From: an uncultured Actinomycetota bacterium
GTDB lineage: Bacteria; Actinomycetota; Actinomycetes; JAHEKZ01
DNA length: 64,000 bases
NCBI GenBank assembly: GCA_963743915.1
Contig: CAVURN010000001.1
Span: 832,001-896,000, forward strand
Reading direction: 5' to 3'
This document shows, piece after piece, positions 3,006 to 43,289 of this stretch. How positions within the stretch are numbered: the first letter of the stretch is position 1; each line of letters opens with the position of its first letter. Position numbers and translations under genes: made by a program. The notes below the pieces were generated by a model. The model was not told where the DNA came from. It searched no databases and saw only the letters and a list, made by a program, of their open reading frames with translations.

Positions 3006-3748
3006 CCGGCATGAGTGCGCGCGAGACCGCCGTCGCCGCCAAGGGGCCGATCGGCAGCCTCGGGGGCGCCTGGATGACCTCGGACGCCGAGGAGCAGGCC
3101 ACCGTCGACGCCGGGCTCGAAGGCTGGCAGCTGTACTTCCTGGCCCGGCACGGGGTCCTCGGCGACGTGGATGCCGACGTCGTGCTCGCGTCCGCGTACG
3201 TGTTTCCCGCCGACCACCTGCGCCGCCAGTGGGACGCTGCGCGACGGGTGATGACGCCCGATGCGGCGGTGGGCCGCTACCTCGACCTGCTGCACGACTG
3301 GGGCGCACAGCACCTGTCCGGCTTCGCCGGCGCTGCACGGCTCGCTGAGCTCGGCCAGCGGGTCATCGACGGGTCCGACGTCGTGGCGCTGCCACTCTTC
3401 GCCGGCTGGCGCGCCCTGCCGGTGCCCTCGTCAGCGCCGGAGCGCTGCGCCCACGTCTGCCAGGTGCTGCGCGAGCACCGCGGGGCATGCCACGGCGTCG
3501 CGCTGGCGGCGCTGGGGATGCCCCCGCTGACCGCCATCCTCACGAACATCGGAGGCGAGGCGAACGCCCTCGACTACGGCTGGGAGCCCCCGTTCCCGGA
3601 GCCGACCGACGCCGAGCGAGAGCTCCGGGTCCGGGTCGAGGAGCTGACCGACGACGTGGCGGCTCCGGCCTACGCCGCGCTCGATGACGCTGAGCAGGCT
3701 GAGCTGGTGAGCCTGCTGGACGCCGCCTCCACCCACGCCTTTGGCTGA
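3002..3748 (+). CDS. SCO6745-family protein
   Basis: [34 protein letters not shown] motifs; GTGA overlap with dapF. Confidence 0.7.
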
Positions 3749-3901
3749 GCCACCCACGCCTGCCCGCCTGCCGGTGATCGGAGCAGAATCGTCATCTGGA
3801 GCCATCGATCAGCCCGCGAAAGTGACTGAGATGCTCCGATCACCGCGGCGGGCTTGGCGAAGGGGAAACCGACTTGCTGGGACATGAGATCCTGGGAACC
3901 G

Positions 3902-5350
3902 ATGGATCCCACCCCGGTCGGCGCCGCCGACTCCTCTGACACCGCGTCCGCGGACCCCGTGCCCCTGCACAGGGCCGGCGTGCCGGACACCGGCACCCTC
4001 GACCTCGAGGACCGCTCCGCGCTGCGCCGCGTCGGGGGCTTGTCCACCGAGCTGCAGGACGTCTCCGAGGTCGAGTACCGGCAGGTGCGGCTCGAGCGGG
4101 TCGTCCTGGTGGGCGTCTGGACGCAGGGGACCGTGACCGACGCCGAGAACTCGCTGCGCGAGCTGGCCGCGCTGGCCGAGACCGCGGGTGCCGACGTCCT
4201 GGACGGGGTGATCCAGCGCCGCGACAAGCCGGACGCCGCCACCTACATCGGGTCCGGCAAGGCGCGTGAGCTGCGGGACATCGTGATCGAGCACCAGGCC
4301 GACACCGTGATCTGCGACGGGGAGCTGACTCCCGGCCAGCTGATCCAGCTCGAGGACGTCGTCAAGGTCAAGGTGGTCGACCGCACCTGGCTGATCCTGG
4401 ACATCTTCGCCCAGCACGCCAAGAGCCGTGAGGGCAAGGCGCAGGTGTCACTGGCGCAGATGCAGTACCTGCTGCCGCGCCTCCGCGGCTGGGGTGAGTC
4501 ACTGTCACGACAGGCCGGTGGGCGCGCCGGTGGTGCCACCGGTGGGGTCGGCACACGTGGTCCCGGTGAGACCAAGATCGAGACCGACCGGCGTCGGATC
4601 CGGGACAAGGTGGCCAAGCTCCGCCGCGAGCTACGGGTCATGGAGACGTCCCGTGCCACCAAGCGTGGACGTCGACGCGCCAACCGCGTTCCGGCGGTGG
4701 CGCTCGCGGGCTACACCAACGCGGGCAAGTCGAGCCTGATGAACCGGCTCACCGGCGCCGGTGTGCTCGTCGACAACTCGCTCTTCGCCACGCTCGACCC
4801 GACCGTGCGCAAGGCGTTCACCGACGACGGTCGGCTGTACACGATCGCCGACACCGTCGGGTTCGTCCGCCACCTGCCCCACCAGCTGGTCGAGGCGTTC
4901 CGCTCCACGCTGGAGGAGGTCACCGAGGCGGACGTCGTGCTGCACGTGGTCGACGCCTCGGACGCCGACCCGGAGCGCCAGCTGCTGTCGGTGCGCGAGG
5001 TCCTCGACGAGATCGGGGCCGCGAACCTCCCGGAGATCGTCCTCATCAACAAGGCCGACCTCGCCGACGCGATTACGATCGCTCGGCTGCGCCGGCTCGA
5101 ACCGGGCGCGGTGGTCGTCTCAGCCCGCACCGGCCAGGGCATCGACGAGCTGCGCGCGCGGATCGAGGGCGCGCTCCCGCACCCCCCGGTGAACGTCGAG
5201 GTCCTGGTGCCCTACGACCGCGGCGACCTCGTGTCACGTCTGCACTCCGAGGGCGAGGTGCTGGGCGAGGAGCACCGCCCGGACGGCACCCTCGTGACGG
5301 CGCGCGTCCACCCCGACCTGGCGGCTGCCCTGCAGCCCATGCGCGTCTGA
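3902..5350 (+). CDS. hflX: Ribosome-splitting GTPase HflX
   Basis: GTRGPGETKIETDRR, GYTNAGKSS, LFATLDPT, DTVGF, NKAD; start codon approximate. Confidence 0.96.
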   Translation: MDPTPVGAADSSDTASADPVPLHRAGVPDTGTLDLEDRSALRRVGGLSTELQDVSEVEYRQVRLERVVLVGVWTQGTVTDAENSLRELAALAETAGADVLDGVIQRRDKPDAATYIGSGKARELRDIVIEHQADTVICDGELTPGQLIQLEDVVKVKVVDRTWLILDIFAQHAKSREGKAQVSLAQMQYLLPRLRGWGESLSRQAGGRAGGATGGVGTRGPGETKIETDRRRIRDKVAKLRRELRVMETSRATKRGRRRANRVPAVALAGYTNAGKSSLMNRLTGAGVLVDNSLFATLDPTVRKAFTDDGRLYTIADTVGFVRHLPHQLVEAFRSTLEEVTEADVVLHVVDASDADPERQLLSVREVLDEIGAANLPEIVLINKADLADAITIARLRRLEPGAVVVSARTGQGIDELRARIEGALPHPPVNVEVLVPYDRGDLVSRLHSEGEVLGEEHRPDGTLVTARVHPDLAAALQPMRV

Positions 5351-18571: not shown

Positions 18572-18777
18572 GAGCGCGGAGTGGGCGGACCCCTCGACCG
18601 TCTCGCACGTGGCCGCCCTCGGCGACTGGTTGACCACGGAGCGCGACCGGCTGCTCACGGCGGCCGTGACTTCTCCCGGAGAGCGTCCGATTCGTGACGC
18701 CGATCATGCCCAGATGGCTGCGGAAGGGCCCCCCAGCGTCTAGCCTCGCGTCGTTCAACCCCCTACAGGAGGTATCG

Positions 18778-38097: not shown

Positions 38098-39551
38098 ATG
38101 AGCGCTGCTCGCTCGACCACCGCCAAGAAGGCCCCGGCCAAGAAGGCGGCCCCGAAGTCCAAGACCACGGCGAAGCCCTCTGCCAAGAGTGCCGCCACGG
38201 CTGCCAAGAAGCCCGGCAAGGCGGCCGTGAAGAAGGCGACGGCCAAGCCGGCGACCAAGAACGCCACCGCAAAGGCGACCGCCAAGAAGACGGCTGCGAA
38301 GAAGCCCGCCAAGGCAGCCGTGAAGAAGGCTCCGGCCAAGGCCGCGTGAAGAAGGCCCCCGCCAAGGCGCCAGTCAAGCAGTCCGCCGCGAAGAAGGACG
38401 AGCCGGCGAAGAAGACGTCCTCCAAGAAGACCGCCGGCAAGGCAGCTGCCACGACAGCCGCCCCGGCGAAGGGTGCCGGAGCCGGCGAGGCACTGGTCGA
38501 GATCCCTGTCGCCGATGACGGTCTGCCGGTCAGTGACGAGGAGATCGCCGAGGAGCTGGCGAAGGAGCCGGAGGAGCAGGGTTTCGTCATCTCGCACCGC
38601 GACGAGTCCGACGAGCCCGTCCAGCAGGTGACCGTCGCCGGCGCCACGGCCGACCCGGTCAAGGACTACCTCAAGCAGATCGGAAAGGTCGCCCTGCTCA
38701 ACGCCGAGCAGGAGGTCGAGCTTGCCAAGCGCATCGAGGCCGGACTGTTCGCGGAAGAGAAGCTGAACGGCACCAAGAAGCTGTCGGCGAAGATGCACCG
38801 TGAGCTCGAGTGGATCGCCGAGGACGGTCGTCGCGCCAAGGACCACCTGCTCGAGGCGAACCTTCGCCTGGTCGTCTCGCTGGCCAAGCGCTACACCGGA
38901 CGCGGCATGCTCTTCCTCGACCTCATCCAGGAGGGCAACCTCGGCCTGATCCGCGCCGTCGAGAAGTTCGACTACACCAAGGGCTACAAGTTCTCGACGT
39001 ACGCGACCTGGTGGATCCGTCAGGCGATCACGCGCGCCATGGCCGACCAGGCCCGCACCATTCGTATCCCGGTGCACATGGTCGAGGTCATCAACAAGCT
39101 CGCCCGTGTCCAGCGCCAGATGCTGCAGGACCTCGGCCGCGAGCCGACGCCCGAGGAGCTCGCCAAGGAGCTCGACATGACGCCGGAGAAGGTCGTCGAG
39201 GTGCAGAAGTACGGCCGCGAGCCGATCTCGCTGCATACGCCTCTCGGCGAGGACGGTGACAGTGAGTTCGGTGACCTCATCGAGGACTCCGAGGCTGTCG
39301 TTCCCGCGGACGCCGTGTCCTTCACGCTGCTTCAGGAGCAGCTGCACGCGGTGCTCGACACGCTGTCGGACCGTGAGGCAGGCGTGGTGTCGATGCGGTT
39401 CGGGCTCACCGACGGACAGCCGAAGACGCTCGACGAGATCGGCAAGGTCTACGGCGTGACTCGTGAGCGCATCCGTCAGATAGAGAGCAAGACGATGAGC
39501 AAGCTCCGTCACCCGAGCCGCTCTCAGGTTCTGCGCGACTATCTGGACTAA
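38098..39551 (+). CDS. sigA: Principal sigma factor (SigA/HrdB/RpoD) with Lys/Ala-rich N-terminus (frameshift near 38346)
   Basis: [57 protein letters not shown]; AAGGAGG RBS. Confidence 0.95.
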
Positions 39552-39639
39552 GGAAATTCAGAGAAGACTGTAGAAACCTAGACAGAATATGGGCTTTCGA
39601 CGTTCTCTGGGTTGTGACTTGACGGGCACAGCGCTCTCA

Positions 39640-40074
39640 GTCATCTCCTGGGGTCAGGAGTCCATGTCGACGACGACAGTGCCGAGCGCGTCTTGGACCT
39701 GTGGTCCAAGAGCGAGGCAGCTTCATGGACAGAGGGAGTGAGCCTGCCCACCGAGGAGGGCGGAGCGGTGTACGCCGAGGGCGGCGTGCCCTTGTGATCA
39801 CCAACCGCTATGAGCAAGATCCCAAGGTGCGCGAGGCGTGCATCGCGCACCACGGCACAACCTGCACCGTGTGTGGGTTCGACTTCGAAGCCGCCTACGG
39901 GGAGCGGGAGCCGGATTCATCGAGGTGCACCACCTGGTCCCGCTGTCCGAGCTGGACGGCACCACCGAGGTCGACCCGGTCACCAACATGCGACCGCTCT
40001 GCAGCAACTGCCACTCGATGATCCATCGCGGCGACCTGATCAGCCCCGACGAGCTCAAGAAGCTCCTGCTCTGA
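39640..40074 (+). pseudogene. McrA-like HNH endonuclease, N-terminally truncated and frameshifted
   Basis: NRYEQDPKVREAC, CTVCGFDFEAAYG, FIEVHHLVPLS, PLCSNCHSMIH; no clear start; shifts near 39785 and 39905. Confidence 0.78.
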
Positions 40075-40423: not shown

Positions 40424-41842
40424 ATGGACGTTCCTTGGCGAACGCTTGTCTGGGTACTGAGGGCTGGTCACTCGGCGATGCTGCTCCTGCACGATGACGG
40501 TCGCGTTCGCTGGGGCAATCGGGCCGCTCGACGGCTGTTCGCAGACGCCCGGCTCCGCACAGGTGCCTTCTCCGATCTGTTCAGCGACTCAGTCGCAGCG
40601 ACCGCGTTCCTCAATGCGGTGCGGGCCGCCCCGATCGGCTACAGCGCAGGATGGCGCACTTTGCACCGCCATCGTGATGGATGGGTTCAGGAGTTCTTCG
40701 TAGAGGCCAGCCGCATCGATGACCCCGAAGGCACCGGCATCCTGGTCACGGTGACCTCCCCTCCAGTGGAGATGCTCGAAACCGACTCGCTGACCGGCTG
40801 CCGAACTCGCCGCGCCCTGGATCGCGATCTCGCCGCGGTCAACGGGGTCGGCTGCCTGGCGTTCGCAGACCTTGACGGCATGAAATCCGTCAATGAGACC
40901 TACGGACACGTCGCAGGCGACATGGTCCTGATCCATGTCGCTGACCGGCTGCGTCGCAGCCTTGCCGGTGAAGGAGCGGTCTATCGGATCGGTGGTGATG
41001 AGTTCGCCATCGTGCTGAACACGCCCGATGTGAAAGTTGCGAACAATCAGGTGCGGGCAGCCCTTCACGAGATGTCCCAGCCGGTGGAGGTCCAGCCTGG
41101 GATAGAGAAGGTCATCACAGCAGGGGTGGGAATCGTTTCCCTGGAGTCAAAGTCACGCATCGAAGCCATGCGTGAGGCAGACATCGCGCTGTATCACGGC
41201 AAGGCCCATGGGCCCAACACCGTGGTGGTCGGGAGTGATCTGCCGGAATGGGCCCGTGACCGCAGGTCGCTTGTCCTGACTGCGGCGAATCTGGCCGAGG
41301 AGCGCGATCGCCTCGCCGAACTGGCCCGAACCGACCCGCTCACCGAGCTGGCCAACCGTCTGGCGCTCAACGAGGATTCGTTCCGCTTGTTCACCACAAG
41401 CCGACGCAACGGCCGACCGTACTCGGTGCTCTTCGTCGACATTGACCTCTTCCACCACTACAACAAGAACCACGGCGATGCAGCAGGCGACAAGGCGCTC
41501 ATCGAGGTGGGCAGGATCATGCAGTCGGTCTGTCGATCGGAAGATCGTGTCTTCCGCAAAGGCGGCGAGGAGTTCATCGTGCTGCTTCCTGAGACTAGCC
41601 TCGCCGAGGCCGCCGCAATCGCAGAGCGTCTACGTCTTGCGGTGTTCGAGCGACAGATTCCGCATGAGAAGCGCCCAGACGGCGCGGAGATTCTCACGGT
41701 GGTCGTAGGCGTCGCCGAGAGCGAAGAAGCCGACCAGAAACCAGAGCAAGTGTGGGAGCGGGCTGCTGCCCCACTGATGGCGGTCAAGCGCGACCCAGCC
41801 GCCCCGAGGAACTGCGTCCGAGTTCACGGCGTTCAGGGGTAG
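40424..41842 (+). CDS. PAS plus tandem GGDEF-GGDEF diguanylate cyclase-like protein
   Basis: PAS-like N-terminus; TDSLTG...RIGGDEF; helical linker; TDPLT...RSEDRVFRKGGEEF. Confidence 0.88.
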   Translation: MDVPWRTLVWVLRAGHSAMLLLHDDGRVRWGNRAARRLFADARLRTGAFSDLFSDSVAATAFLNAVRAAPIGYSAGWRTLHRHRDGWVQEFFVEASRIDDPEGTGILVTVTSPPVEMLETDSLTGCRTRRALDRDLAAVNGVGCLAFADLDGMKSVNETYGHVAGDMVLIHVADRLRRSLAGEGAVYRIGGDEFAIVLNTPDVKVANNQVRAALHEMSQPVEVQPGIEKVITAGVGIVSLESKSRIEAMREADIALYHGKAHGPNTVVVGSDLPEWARDRRSLVLTAANLAEERDRLAELARTDPLTELANRLALNEDSFRLFTTSRRNGRPYSVLFVDIDLFHHYNKNHGDAAGDKALIEVGRIMQSVCRSEDRVFRKGGEEFIVLLPETSLAEAAAIAERLRLAVFERQIPHEKRPDGAEILTVVVGVAESEEADQKPEQVWERAAAPLMAVKRDPAAPRNCVRVHGVQG

Positions 41843-41859
41843 CAGTGGGATCAGAGCAC

Positions 41860-42129
41860 ATGTGGGCGTATGAGTGTCCCGTCCATTGCCGAAGGGGATG
41901 TCACTCCGCGTATCGAGGCTGTGGTGGACCCACCTACGGGCTCGTGTTCGACAAGATCCCGGGTCAAGGCGTGGTCAGTTACACAGTCTGCAAAGCGCAC
42001 TACGGTCCAGGCATCGTCCGAGTGACCCCCGTTGAACCGTGGTACGACAACAAGCGCATCTATGACCGGCCCGGACCGAAGACGTGCGAATGCTCGAACC
42101 CGGACGAGTTCGCCCGAGGCCGTTACTGA
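41860..42129 (+). CDS. Cys/His-rich hypothetical protein A (89 aa), putative zinc-binding
   Basis: CPVHC-x10-C-x22-CxxH...TCEC; starts 17 nt after the cyclase stop. Confidence 0.65.
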   Translation: MWAYECPVHCRRGCHSAYRGCGGPTYGLVFDKIPGQGVVSYTVCKAHYGPGIVRVTPVEPWYDNKRIYDRPGPKTCECSNPDEFARGRY

Positions 42130-42581
42130 TGGCCGAGATCGACGACGAGGCCTGCCCCATCCATTGCTCCGGAGGGATCATTAAATGCCGCCGCCCACCC
42201 GTCGCCACAGGCATCGGACCCGGCATTGGTTCAGGCTCCGCTTCTCGCTCTCTATGTGCCAACCACGTGAAGGGATGGTTACGCGCCATTCGACGAGGAC
42301 GGGACTATCGAACGATCTGGGGGTGGCTTTCGTGGCCAGGCTGGCAGGCAAGCGATGAGACGTGGGTTGTCTGGGGGATCATCCATTGCGACACCTGCTG
42401 CTGCGACCGGTCCAACCTTCCGCTGCTTCGCGGCCCGATCGTGCCATGGGAACGACCCGGCACTCCGTACGAGGGCGTGCGGCAGGGAAAGATTGAGGTT
42501 GGCGTGCTCGGGGACAGGCCTGACGGTAGGCGCGGACTATGCGAGCCGGGAAGAGTGCCCTATCCACCGCCGGTGGGGTGA
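42129..42581 (+). CDS. Cys/His-rich hypothetical protein B (150 aa), apparent paralog of A
   Basis: CPIHC-x6-C-x22-CxxH...TCCC; TGATG overlap with A. Confidence 0.65.
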   Translation: MAEIDDEACPIHCSGGIIKCRRPPVATGIGPGIGSGSASRSLCANHVKGWLRAIRRGRDYRTIWGWLSWPGWQASDETWVVWGIIHCDTCCCDRSNLPLLRGPIVPWERPGTPYEGVRQGKIEVGVLGDRPDGRRGLCEPGRVPYPPPVG

Positions 42582-42838
42582 ATGGGGGCGCGTTGGCGCC
42601 GCAACGAAAGGGGGGGTGATGCACCGAGAGATGAAGCGCCCCGAGTCCTTCTCCGAGATTGCCGACGATTGGTCGGCGATCTGTTGGCATATCTCAGGTG
42701 TACCTGCCTATCGCCATCCGGTGGGAACGAACTCCGCTACTAAGGAAGAGGAAGCCAGGAAGGCAGGGCGTTCTCCTACCATTGCCATCTCAGGCAGACC
42801 GTGACGACCGTACTCACCCACCGACCAGGGGAGATGTC

Positions 42839-43075
42839 ATGAACGACGTGAGCTTGGCGGCGTTGATCTCCGCATGCGGAACCGTGGGGGCCTTCATGCT
42901 CGTGTACCACCTCGGTAAGCGGGTCGGACGCCGAGAAGAACGAACTGAACGCCACTTGCGCATGGCGAGAGAGGACAAACTCCAACGACTGCGCGAACTT
43001 ACCTGGCACCAGGAGCGCGCCTGGCACCAGGAACACGGCCGCTCGTCAACCCCCGATACACCGTGGCGCGACTGA
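42839..43075 (+). CDS. Small single-pass membrane protein (78 aa)
   Basis: AGGGGAG RBS; N-terminal hydrophobic helix followed by a basic/charged helix. Confidence 0.6.
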   Translation: MNDVSLAALISACGTVGAFMLVYHLGKRVGRREERTERHLRMAREDKLQRLRELTWHQERAWHQEHGRSSTPDTPWRD

Positions 43076-43092
43076 GCAGCCACTGCTCAGTC
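43070..43092 (+). terminator. Hairpin at the end of the island transcript
   Basis: GACTGAGCAG-cca-CTGCTCAGTC perfect 10-bp stem. Confidence 0.6.
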
Positions 43093-43289
43093 CAGGATTC
43101 TGCACCGCACAGCGCTCGTGACCTGCACGTTTGCCGAGCACGGTCGTACAGCGCTCGGGCGTTTCGAGTGCGCGACTATCTGGACTAAGGTCCGGCGCGG
43201 CCAGTACCACGCCGTCACGATTGGCTGTCAGCAGGTTGCGCCCATCCATCTGCCAGGAACGGCTGCTGGGGATACAGCTGGTCGCAGCG

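What the first reader, a model, noticed from the sequence alone, without database searches (positions are those of the whole stretch)
40424..43092. Candidate undescribed nucleotide-signalling module: PAS-GGDEF-GGDEF, two novel zinc-finger paralogs and a small membrane protein
Seen: co-oriented genes inside the att-bounded island. The cyclase ends at 41842, protein A starts 17 nt later, protein B follows through a TGATG overlap, and a single-TM ORF and a hairpin come after a ~260-nt gap. Known: mobile defence islands often pair a nucleotide second-messenger synthase with small effectors, as in CBASS and Pycsar. Inference: a self-contained cyclic-dinucleotide system (anti-phage or lifestyle switch) in which the Cys/His proteins act as sensors or effectors. 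I do not recognise this combination. A defence role is speculative.
Basis: partly seen in the sequence, partly recalled or inferred. Interest (0 to 1): 0.8.

Follow-up and report, generated by a model that had tools for sequence, protein, structure and literature searches.

The report
Diguanylate cyclase operon on mobile cassette
An ordinary-looking c-di-GMP synthase gene, tightly coupled to a tiny, almost unique cysteine/histidine protein, is the cargo of a small mobile cassette inserted at the stop codon of the main sigma-factor gene, a site where related bacteria stack many such cassettes.

Summary
The sequence features are real. A PAS-like/GGDEF/GGDEF gene (40424-41842) is followed by small Cys/His ORFs and a single-pass membrane ORF. 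All sit inside a 3.6-kb low-GC insert bounded by a perfect 22-nt direct repeat of the 3' end of the hrdB-like sigma gene.

The cyclase belongs to a small actinobacterial tandem-GGDEF family. Both GG(D/E)EF motifs and one RxxD site are invariant in the 10 sequences aligned. Protein A is a real gene with 8 invariant Cys/His, but it is extremely rare: 2 hits in 1.84 billion representatives. It probably starts at GTG 41845, 2 nt after the cyclase stop.

B has no relative anywhere and weak coding signal. Its likeness to A is at motif level only (ECP[VI]H). A third ORF in the "gap" carries the same motif.

The two cyclase homologues I could inspect in other genomes have no A/B neighbours. No defence model matches any of the genes. 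I read it as a c-di-GMP lifestyle-signalling operon carried as cassette cargo, not a CBASS-like defence system.

The more unusual finding is the context. The insert ends in a ~105-nt conserved element found in 14 of 20 genomes of the family, in co-oriented arrays downstream of hrdB, with no recombinase nearby.

The parts
38346..39551 (+). hrdB-like principal sigma factor gene; its last 20 nt plus 2 nt beyond form the left repeat (insertion target)
   Evidence: ORF and translation. 79-92% nt identity over its 3' 650 nt in 20 of 20 relatives searched, apart from the window's own genome.
39532..39553 (+). Left copy of the 22-nt direct repeat (end of the sigma gene)
39701..40074 (+). HNH endonuclease gene, broken into two frames (39701-40021 and 39838-40074)
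   Evidence: Pfam HNH E 9.4e-8 on the second frame. PADLOC mREase_IV E 1.2e-4. One environmental variant contig has single-base indels at 39783 and 39905 (table 4).
40424..41842 (+). Sensor diguanylate cyclase: PAS-like N-terminus, GGDEF domain 1 (RIGGDEF, no RxxD), GGDEF domain 2 (RSED...GGEEF)
   Evidence: Both motifs are invariant in the 10-sequence family alignment.
41845..42129 (+). Protein A, 94 aa from GTG 41845 (89 aa from ATG 41860); small Cys/His protein
   Evidence: Homologues P0005/P0007/P0008 (91-97% identity) and P0006 (56-58%). C6 H9 C10 C21 C44 H47 C76 C78 and the C-terminal GPKTCEC.NPDEFARGRY are invariant. GC by codon position 0.58/0.54/0.71.
42129..42581 (+). ORF B, 150 aa, start overlapping A's stop; doubtful gene or decayed paralogue
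   Evidence: Shares CP[VI]HC...C-x22-C-x2-H spacing with A, but the HMM E-value is 1.7-6. No homologue. Not in the gene-call collection. GC by codon position 0.63/0.61/0.69. A ~90% variant contig has a 10-nt insertion at 42515.
42493..42804 (+). Third ORF frame carrying ECPIH (TTG starts 42493/42499), or a short form from ATG 42622 (60 aa) behind a G-rich ribosome-binding site
   Evidence: The GC3 phase switches to this frame from about 42440. The variant contig has -1 at 42566 and +1 at 42615 but no indel after 42615.
42839..43075 (+). Single-pass membrane ORF, 78 aa
   Evidence: Hydrophobic residues 4-22, mean KD 2.09. Called by NCBI/ENA pipelines, cluster of one. Found in 0 of 19 other family genomes.
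43070..43092 (+). 10-bp hairpin spanning the stop codon of the membrane ORF and the first bases of the conserved element
   Evidence: Not a T-tract terminator.
43086..43190 (+). ~105-nt conserved cassette-end element; its last 22 nt are the right direct repeat (43169-43190)
   Evidence: 13 copies aligned with 85% mean column identity. Model R1 hits 14 of 20 family genomes.

Best explanation
The stretch is the cargo of one 3.6-kb mobile cassette inserted at the stop codon of the principal sigma-factor gene.

The cargo is an operon. Its lead gene is a cytoplasmic sensor diguanylate cyclase of a small actinobacterial PAS-GGDEF-GGDEF family. Both catalytic motifs are intact. Two GGDEF domains in one chain could form the catalytic pair that condenses two GTP into c-di-GMP. 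The second domain carries the RxxD product-inhibition site.

The cyclase is translationally coupled to protein A, a real but nearly unique 89-94-aa protein with eight invariant Cys/His. A is probably a metal- or Fe-S-binding partner that modulates the cyclase or reads its product. That role is inferred, not shown. Two further ORFs (B and a third frame) look like diverged or decaying copies of A's N-terminal module. A single-pass membrane ORF ends the cassette.

The most likely output is an accessory input into c-di-GMP lifestyle signalling, not phage defence.
For: Cyclase:
- Two GGDEF domains at 200.9 bits.
- They align to solved active cyclases; domain 2's RSED aligns on WspR's RSSD, followed by GGEEF.
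- GGDEF, GGEEF, the metal/base-contact residues and the C-R-x-x-D site are invariant in 10 family members down to 35% identity.
- The same two-GGDEF architecture occurs in G029 and in a named Nocardioides protein.

Operon:
- 2-nt or 17-nt gap between the cyclase and A, and a stop/start overlap between A and B.

Protein A as a real gene:
- A 58%-identical homologue keeps all eight Cys/His and the C-terminal 18 residues.

Shared module:
- 3 of the 4 CP[VI]H motifs in the six-frame window lie in the three consecutive ORFs.

Cassette:
- 22-nt repeat.
- GC dip.
- ~105-nt terminal element shared with arrays downstream of hrdB in relatives.
- The cassette was not found in the 13 other genomes of the genus (the only other match is a diverged copy in G004 at another locus).

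No defence signature: PADLOC has no credible hit for the cyclase, A, B, the third ORF or the membrane ORF.
Against: - No expression data exist for any of these genes.
- The roles of A, B and the third ORF are pure inference.
- Structure models are unusable (pLDDT 48.3 for A, 37.0 for B).
- The neighbouring HNH gene is frameshifted, so the cassette may be decaying.
- The only same-genus cyclase homologue (G004) is itself broken by a stop and a frameshift.
- B has weak codon-position signal, and a variant strain shifts its frame near the end.
- The PAS assignment is below Pfam's cut-off in this protein.
- Cyclase homologues without A show the enzyme does not need A.
Confidence: 0.5

Rival explanations
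1. The genes share a cassette but not a function. Only the cyclase (if anything) is functional. A is an unrelated small selfish or orphan gene. B and the third frame are dead remnants of tandem duplication, and the whole cassette is eroding.
For: - The HNH gene is broken in two places relative to a variant contig.
- B is absent from all gene-call collections and has no homologue.
- B's codon-position GC is weak.
- The variant strain has indels in B's tail and in the third frame.
- Cyclase homologues lack A/B.
- No cyclase homologue's list has a longest contig of 4841, the length of the contig that carries the A homologue P0006. This is weak evidence: contig lengths only.
Against: - The 2-nt gap with a good ribosome-binding site and the stop/start overlap are what selection for coupled translation produces.
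- The cyclase and A are both intact and conserved in at least three near relatives.
- GSEH, upstream of A's ATG, is conserved at 58% overall identity.
Confidence: 0.3
2. A cyclic-nucleotide anti-phage system. The tandem-GGDEF enzyme makes a signal on infection, and the Cys/His proteins and/or the membrane ORF act as effectors, as in CBASS or Pycsar.
For: - It sits in a mobile cassette at a recombination hot spot.
- It lies beside an HNH nuclease with a weak type-IV-restriction-like hit (E 1.2e-4).
- It has a small membrane ORF at the end.
- Its small proteins are novel.
Against: - No PADLOC model matches the cyclase credibly (best E 0.0036 on the N-terminus), and none matches A, B, the third ORF or the membrane ORF.
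- The cyclase is a canonical GGDEF with an RxxD feedback site, not a CD-NTase or Pycsar cyclase.
- Other cassettes at this site in relatives mostly carry surface or secreted and metabolic proteins, not defence genes.
- A-family proteins were not found in viral contigs.
Confidence: 0.08

Closest known systems
Sensor diguanylate cyclases of the GGDEF family (WspR, PleD; 'sensor domain-containing diguanylate cyclase' of Nocardioides mesophilus, P0021)
   Same: GGDEF fold, GG(D/E)EF active site and RxxD inhibitory site in domain 2. An N-terminal PAS-type sensor is present in family members. P0021 has the same length and two-GGDEF layout at 35-36% identity.
   Different: There are two apparently catalytic GGDEF domains in one chain, rather than one GGDEF with or without EAL. 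It is carried on a mobile cassette and coupled to an orphan Cys/His gene.
CBASS / Pycsar cyclic-nucleotide defence systems
   Same: A nucleotide cyclase followed by small genes, including a membrane ORF, on mobile DNA.
   Different: The cyclase class is wrong (GGDEF, not CD-NTase or class III-like cyclase). No known effector domain is present, no PADLOC match was found, and a product-feedback site is present.
Integron cassette arrays (attI / attC)
   Same: - Arrays of short gene cassettes, each ending in a ~105-nt site whose two ends are 13-14-nt inverted repeats. The outer repeat matches the array's entry site, here the hrdB stop region.
- The same cassette sits at position 1 in G010 and position 2 in G009, as expected if new cassettes enter at the hrdB end.
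   Different: - No integron integrase or any recombinase lies next to the entry site.
- Cassette genes lie in both orientations.
- The element is conserved in sequence with no covariation, and its fold is only z -2.2.
- Passages of Cury et al. 2016 (PMC4889954, read with 'find') state that Actinobacteria genomes lacked complete integrons.
Tandem island accretion at the 3' end of a target gene (tRNA-targeting islands; tycheposons of Prochlorococcus, recalled, only the listing seen)
   Same: Repeated partial copies of the target gene's 3' end separate successive cargo blocks, and many blocks lack their own integrase.
   Different: The target is a protein-coding essential gene (the principal sigma factor). 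The blocks are very small (0.7-4 kb). Each keeps a conserved ~85-nt arm beside the repeat.
Actinobacterial c-di-GMP effectors BldD and RsiG-WhiG (recalled, not tested here)
   Same: They would be the expected downstream readers of c-di-GMP in this phylum. A has an invariant R-x-Y-D-R stretch that recalls RxxD-type c-di-GMP contacts.
   Different: No sequence similarity was detected between A or B and any known family.

Membership tests
GGDEF diguanylate cyclase (PF00990) | Domain model match above the curated cut-off | tested here: met
   200.9 bits against 23.8, two stretches. TIGR00254 scores 196.4 bits against 37.4.
GGDEF diguanylate cyclase (PF00990) | Intact GG(D/E)EF active-site motif | tested here: met
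   RIGGDEF in domain 1 and KGGEEF in domain 2. Both are invariant in 10 family members.
GGDEF diguanylate cyclase (PF00990) | RxxD inhibitory site five residues before the motif (common, not obligatory) | tested here: met
   Domain 2's RSED aligns to WspR's RSSD. Domain 1 has AGEG there instead.
GGDEF diguanylate cyclase (PF00990) | Synthesis of c-di-GMP from GTP | not testable with these tools
   Needs an enzyme assay.
PAS sensor domain | Domain model match above the cut-off | tested here: inconclusive
   PAS_4 scores 19.9 bits, below 23.1. Homologues P0019, P0021 and P0022 carry precomputed PAS families.
CBASS / Pycsar / other catalogued defence systems | Cyclase of the CD-NTase or Pycsar class, or any PADLOC model match | tested here: not met
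   Only a chance-level Cas8/Csf1 hit (E 0.0036-0.01) on the cyclase N-terminus. Nothing for A, B, the third ORF or the membrane ORF.
CBASS / Pycsar / other catalogued defence systems | Recognisable effector (nuclease, phospholipase, TIR, multi-pass membrane protein, SAVED/CARF sensor) | tested here: not met
   No family match for A, B or the third ORF. The membrane ORF has one helix only.
Known zinc-finger families | Match to a described zinc-binding domain model or solved structure | tested here: not met
   Pfam, NCBIfam and PHROGs gave none. PDB sequence search gave 0 hits for the A profile and only E >= 0.54 for B.
Known zinc-finger families | Conserved Cys/His ligand set | tested here: met
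   For A, 8 Cys/His are invariant in 5 sequences. For B there is nothing to compare with.
Integrative island bounded by att repeats | Direct repeat duplicating the 3' end of the target gene | tested here: met
   22 nt, two copies, 0 of 100 shuffles reach two matches.
Integrative island bounded by att repeats | Own integrase inside the island | tested here: not met
   No recombinase ORF lies between the repeats. The genome's 4 tyrosine and 1 serine recombinase genes lie elsewhere.
Integron | IntI-type integrase beside the entry site | tested here: not met
   None lies near hrdB in the own genome. None of the recombinase matches lies on an hrdB contig near the array. G010 has 5 element copies and no serine recombinase.
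Integron | attC-like folded site with structure kept by covariation | tested here: inconclusive
   Terminal inverted repeats are present. DNA fold z -2.21. Only 3 of 28 predicted pairs show a double change, and the covariation term is +0.59.

The most novel reading that the evidence does not exclude
The stop-codon region of the principal sigma-factor gene serves, in this actinobacterial family, as the entry site of a previously undescribed gene-cassette platform. Small cassettes, each ending in a ~105-nt attC-like element that regenerates the last codons of hrdB, are inserted and stacked by a recombinase acting in trans. This would be a functional analogue of integrons in a phylum reported to lack them. 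The cyclase/Cys-His operon would be one such cassette, and protein A would be a new metalloprotein partner or reader of c-di-GMP signalling.
Probability: 0.3. Interest if true: 0.7.

Novelty: new variant of a known kind. Interest (0 to 1): 0.42.

Why it matters
Taken alone, the cyclase operon is a modest addition: one more sensor diguanylate cyclase with an orphan partner. If A proves to bind a metal and to control or read the cyclase, it would add a new small component to actinobacterial c-di-GMP signalling.

The context matters more. A recombination hot spot at the end of an essential, highly conserved gene, filled with short cassettes that share a ~105-nt end element and move between genera, would show how small-genome freshwater and sediment actinobacteria trade accessory genes without carrying integrases in each element. 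It would also give a sequence handle (model R1) for finding such arrays elsewhere.

Tried and rejected
Searches for relatives of A and B that found little or nothing:
- Word-indexed search of 5.8 billion proteins: A gave 1 cluster, B gave none.
- Full HMMER scan with A: 2 hits.
- Metagenome contigs with A, then with the cyclase: no relative of A, and one 35% cyclase fragment, L031.
- Genome contigs with B: one 19-residue match in a Phycisphaera MAG, L010, which I take as chance.
- Viral contigs with A and with the A alignment: none.
- 400 genomes of the class with the A profile: self only.
- 60 relatives with B: only E >= 0.011, mostly with internal stops.
- Family genomes with the membrane ORF and the third ORF: none. 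One E 0.0045 hit in G008 lies antisense to a trpC-like gene (my reading of its translation; no family search was run on it) and was rejected.
- ESM Atlas: best score 0.83 for A, no usable hit for B.

Structure and binding:
- AlphaFold2 models of A and B were too poor to use (pLDDT 48.3 and 37.0), so no fold search was run.
- Complex prediction of the cyclase with A: 'no answer', score 0.00. This is not evidence either way.

Other checks:
- Rfam on the island: only a chance miRNA hit, E 0.21.
- Sequencing runs: no RNA holder listed.
- Laid contigs of 4 DNA runs showed identical low-depth fragments of the island and both junctions, but no joint skipping the island. Parts without cover are not interpreted.
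- Idea rejected: the ~105-nt element as a structured RNA or attC-type hairpin kept by covariation. No covariation was seen.
- Idea rejected: Xer/dif-type site. I saw no resemblance by eye and made no test.

Literature:
- Searches for an hrdB, rpoD or principal-sigma attB and for 'tandem GGDEF' gave listings with nothing relevant. Only listings and abstract starts were seen.
- That this hot spot is not in print rests on those two searches alone.

Unpublished genomes:
- G042, G048, G050 and G060 are among the 60 relatives. They contribute only to the negative result for B.
Full report
WHAT IS THERE

The window is part of contig C1 of a 2.9-Mb, ~69% GC genome in 5 contigs, 90% complete. An hrdB-like principal sigma gene (38346-39551) ends in a 22-nt sequence that recurs, perfectly, at 43169-43190. 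There are two copies in the window with up to 3 mismatches allowed, and none of 100 shuffles reached two. There are two copies in the whole genome. Between the copies GC falls to 0.62-0.64, against about 0.67-0.74 elsewhere.

On the + strand the insert holds:
- an HNH endonuclease gene split over two frames (Pfam HNH E 9.4e-8);
- the cyclase gene, 40424-41842;
- protein A;
- ORF B;
- a third small ORF frame;
- a 78-aa single-pass membrane ORF;
- a 10-bp hairpin.

No recombinase lies inside the insert.

THE CYCLASE

It has two GGDEF domains (200.9 bits, two stretches). The motifs are RIGGDEF and KGGEEF.
- Domain 2 aligns to WspR with its RSED on WspR's RSSD inhibitory site.
- Domain 1 aligns to other solved cyclases but has no RxxD.
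- The N-terminal 110 residues give a sub-threshold PAS_4 hit. More distant homologues carry PAS families.

The family is small:
- 33 proteins at E <= 1e-40 among the 8000 candidates scored;
- 3 of 401 genomes of the class at E <= 1e-50, self included;
- 2 of 14 genomes of the genus, self included.

In a 10-sequence alignment down to 35% identity, both GG(D/E)EF motifs, the upstream D-x-D and N...G-D residues of both domains, and the C-R-x-x-D site are invariant. So both domains are under selection as catalytic domains. A single chain with two such domains could supply the dimer that GGDEF catalysis needs. That last point is inference from established GGDEF enzymology, not a result.

PROTEIN A

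A full HMMER scan of 1.84 billion representatives found two proteins, P0005 (91% identity) and P0006 (58%). Two more near-identical members are P0007 and P0008. Across the five sequences C6, H9, C10, C21, C44, H47, C76 and C78 and the last 18 residues are invariant. Residues 12-18 are a variable patch.

P0008 and P0006 both start five residues earlier with GSEH. In the window that corresponds to GTG 41845, 2 nt after the cyclase stop, with AGGGG five bases upstream. I therefore place A at 41845-42129.

A is a real gene of a new, very rare family. Eight conserved Cys/His suggest two metal sites or an iron-sulfur cluster (inference). No known family or solved structure matches. The AlphaFold2 model is unreliable (pLDDT 48.3).

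ORF B AND THE THIRD FRAME

B starts on A's stop codon. It has no relative in any search. It is not among the gene calls of the collection in either of two start variants. Its codon-position signal is weak and its model has pLDDT 37.0.

Against A, BLASTP finds only CP(V/I)HC..G (E 0.075). By eye, and in the HMM alignment, B also keeps Cys, 22 residues, then C-x-x-H, as A does. The score is not significant (E 1.7-6 among 1001 ORFs).

The 257-nt 'gap' holds a third frame that reads ...REECPIH.... This is the best non-self hit of the A profile in the window (E 0.013). CP[VI]H occurs 4 times in 116,190 six-frame residues of the window, and 3 of those are these adjacent ORFs. So a tandem triplication of A's N-terminal module is the simplest reading.

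Whether B and the third frame still encode proteins is open. One ~90%-identical environmental contig has a 10-nt insertion at 42515, a 1-nt deletion at 42566 and a 1-nt insertion at 42615, and then no indel to 42784. That pattern changes B's tail and breaks the long form of the third ORF. It leaves the short form from ATG 42622 untouched.

IS IT ONE SYSTEM?

- The cyclase and A share contigs only in near-identical relatives, judged from equal contig lengths of 5907 and 46790.
- The G004 homologue (48-59% identity, itself interrupted) abuts the end of a ribonucleotide reductase gene, with no room for A/B.
- The G029 homologue (39%) is followed by a convergent gene.
- No defence model matches. 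A-like proteins were not found in viral contigs.

I therefore favour an accessory c-di-GMP signalling operon (0.5). The alternatives are chance or decaying cargo (0.3) and a defence system (0.08).

THE CONTEXT, WHICH IS THE LESS ORDINARY PART

The last ~105 nt of the insert (43086-43190) form a conserved element. BLAST of the region against relatives showed many copies. Thirteen copies from five genomes align at 85% mean column identity.

A sequence-only model (R1) finds it in 14 of 20 genomes of the family and in 5 of 5 genera, at 1-12 copies each. In 9 of those 14 (G000, G004, G005, G006, G008, G009, G010, G012, G016), at least one copy lies downstream of, and co-oriented with, hrdB on the same contig. 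G004 has seven in a row over 14 kb.

Features of the element:
- Each copy ends with the hrdB stop region.
- Most of the differences between copies there are synonymous in the hrdB frame: the end still reads R-D-Y-L-D-stop in 11 of the 13 copies aligned.
- The first 13-14 nt of each copy are the inverted repeat of its last ones.

Cassettes are 0.7-4 kb. They carry beta-propeller/Ig-like surface proteins, DUF3592, Wzz-like, RTX, glyoxalase and PNPOx-like genes and unknowns, in both orientations.

Cassettes are shared between genomes at different array positions. A Wzz-like cassette is first in G010 and second in G009. A 632-aa gene follows an element in both G004 and G014, which belong to different genera.

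No recombinase sits at the site:
- The own genome's four tyrosine recombinase matches and one serine recombinase lie elsewhere.
- G010 has five element copies and no serine recombinase.
- Small serine recombinases do lie inside the hrdB-proximal cassette of G006 and 4.3 kb from an element in G017. They are candidates only.

The element shows no covariation and only a modest fold (z -2.21). I therefore read it as a double-stranded recombination site, not a proven attC-type hairpin.

COMPARISON WITH KNOWN SYSTEMS

The cyclase meets all testable criteria of a GGDEF diguanylate cyclase. The block fails the testable criteria for catalogued defence systems. The array resembles integrons and tandem tRNA-end islands in layout but lacks their defining integrase and, for integrons, cassette orientation. 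Passages of PMC4889954 state that Actinobacteria lacked complete integrons.

LIMITS

- There are no expression data.
- The negative result for B includes four unpublished genomes.

Noticed in passing
window 43086-43190; L023 (G004:C11:146500-163500); L025; L026; L027; L038: A ~105-nt conserved element ending in the hrdB stop region marks the ends of stacked cassettes downstream of hrdB. It is found in 14 of 20 family genomes, with up to 7 in a row. No recombinase sits beside the site.
   Followed up: yes
window 39701-40074: The HNH endonuclease gene lies in two frames. One environmental contig differs by single-base insertions at 39783 and 39905, so the gene may be intact in some strains and broken (or mis-assembled) here.
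   Followed up: partly
L024 (G004:C11:126500-133000), 3069-4575 minus strand: The only same-genus homologue of the cyclase is interrupted by a stop and a frameshift. It sits tail-to-tail with a ribonucleotide reductase gene.
   Followed up: partly
L027:6590-7300 (G006) and L037:1069-1815 (G017); own genome C1:258613-259164: Related small serine recombinases (Resolvase + HTH_7). One lies inside the hrdB-proximal cassette of G006, one lies 4.3 kb from an element copy in G017, and a 53%-identical one lies far from hrdB in the window's genome, next to a tyrosine-recombinase fragment at C1:264951.
   Followed up: partly
L038:9462 (G016): A third copy of the hrdB-end core stands 1.5 kb after the full element without a detectable element beside it. 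This suggests decayed or minimal cassette ends.
   Followed up: no
window 38098-38471: The 5' part of the sigma gene is a run of Lys/Ala-rich 12-15-nt-phased repeats (10 copies of a 48-nt family).
   Followed up: no
window 18619-18705: ARAGORN calls a tRNA-Val(CAC) of 87 nt with the anticodon at position 38, which is long for a tRNA-Val.
   Followed up: no
G009:C78 and G009:C27: G009 has two hrdB-like 3' regions (both 89% identical to the window's), each followed by element copies. This points to strain mixture or duplication in that assembly.
   Followed up: no
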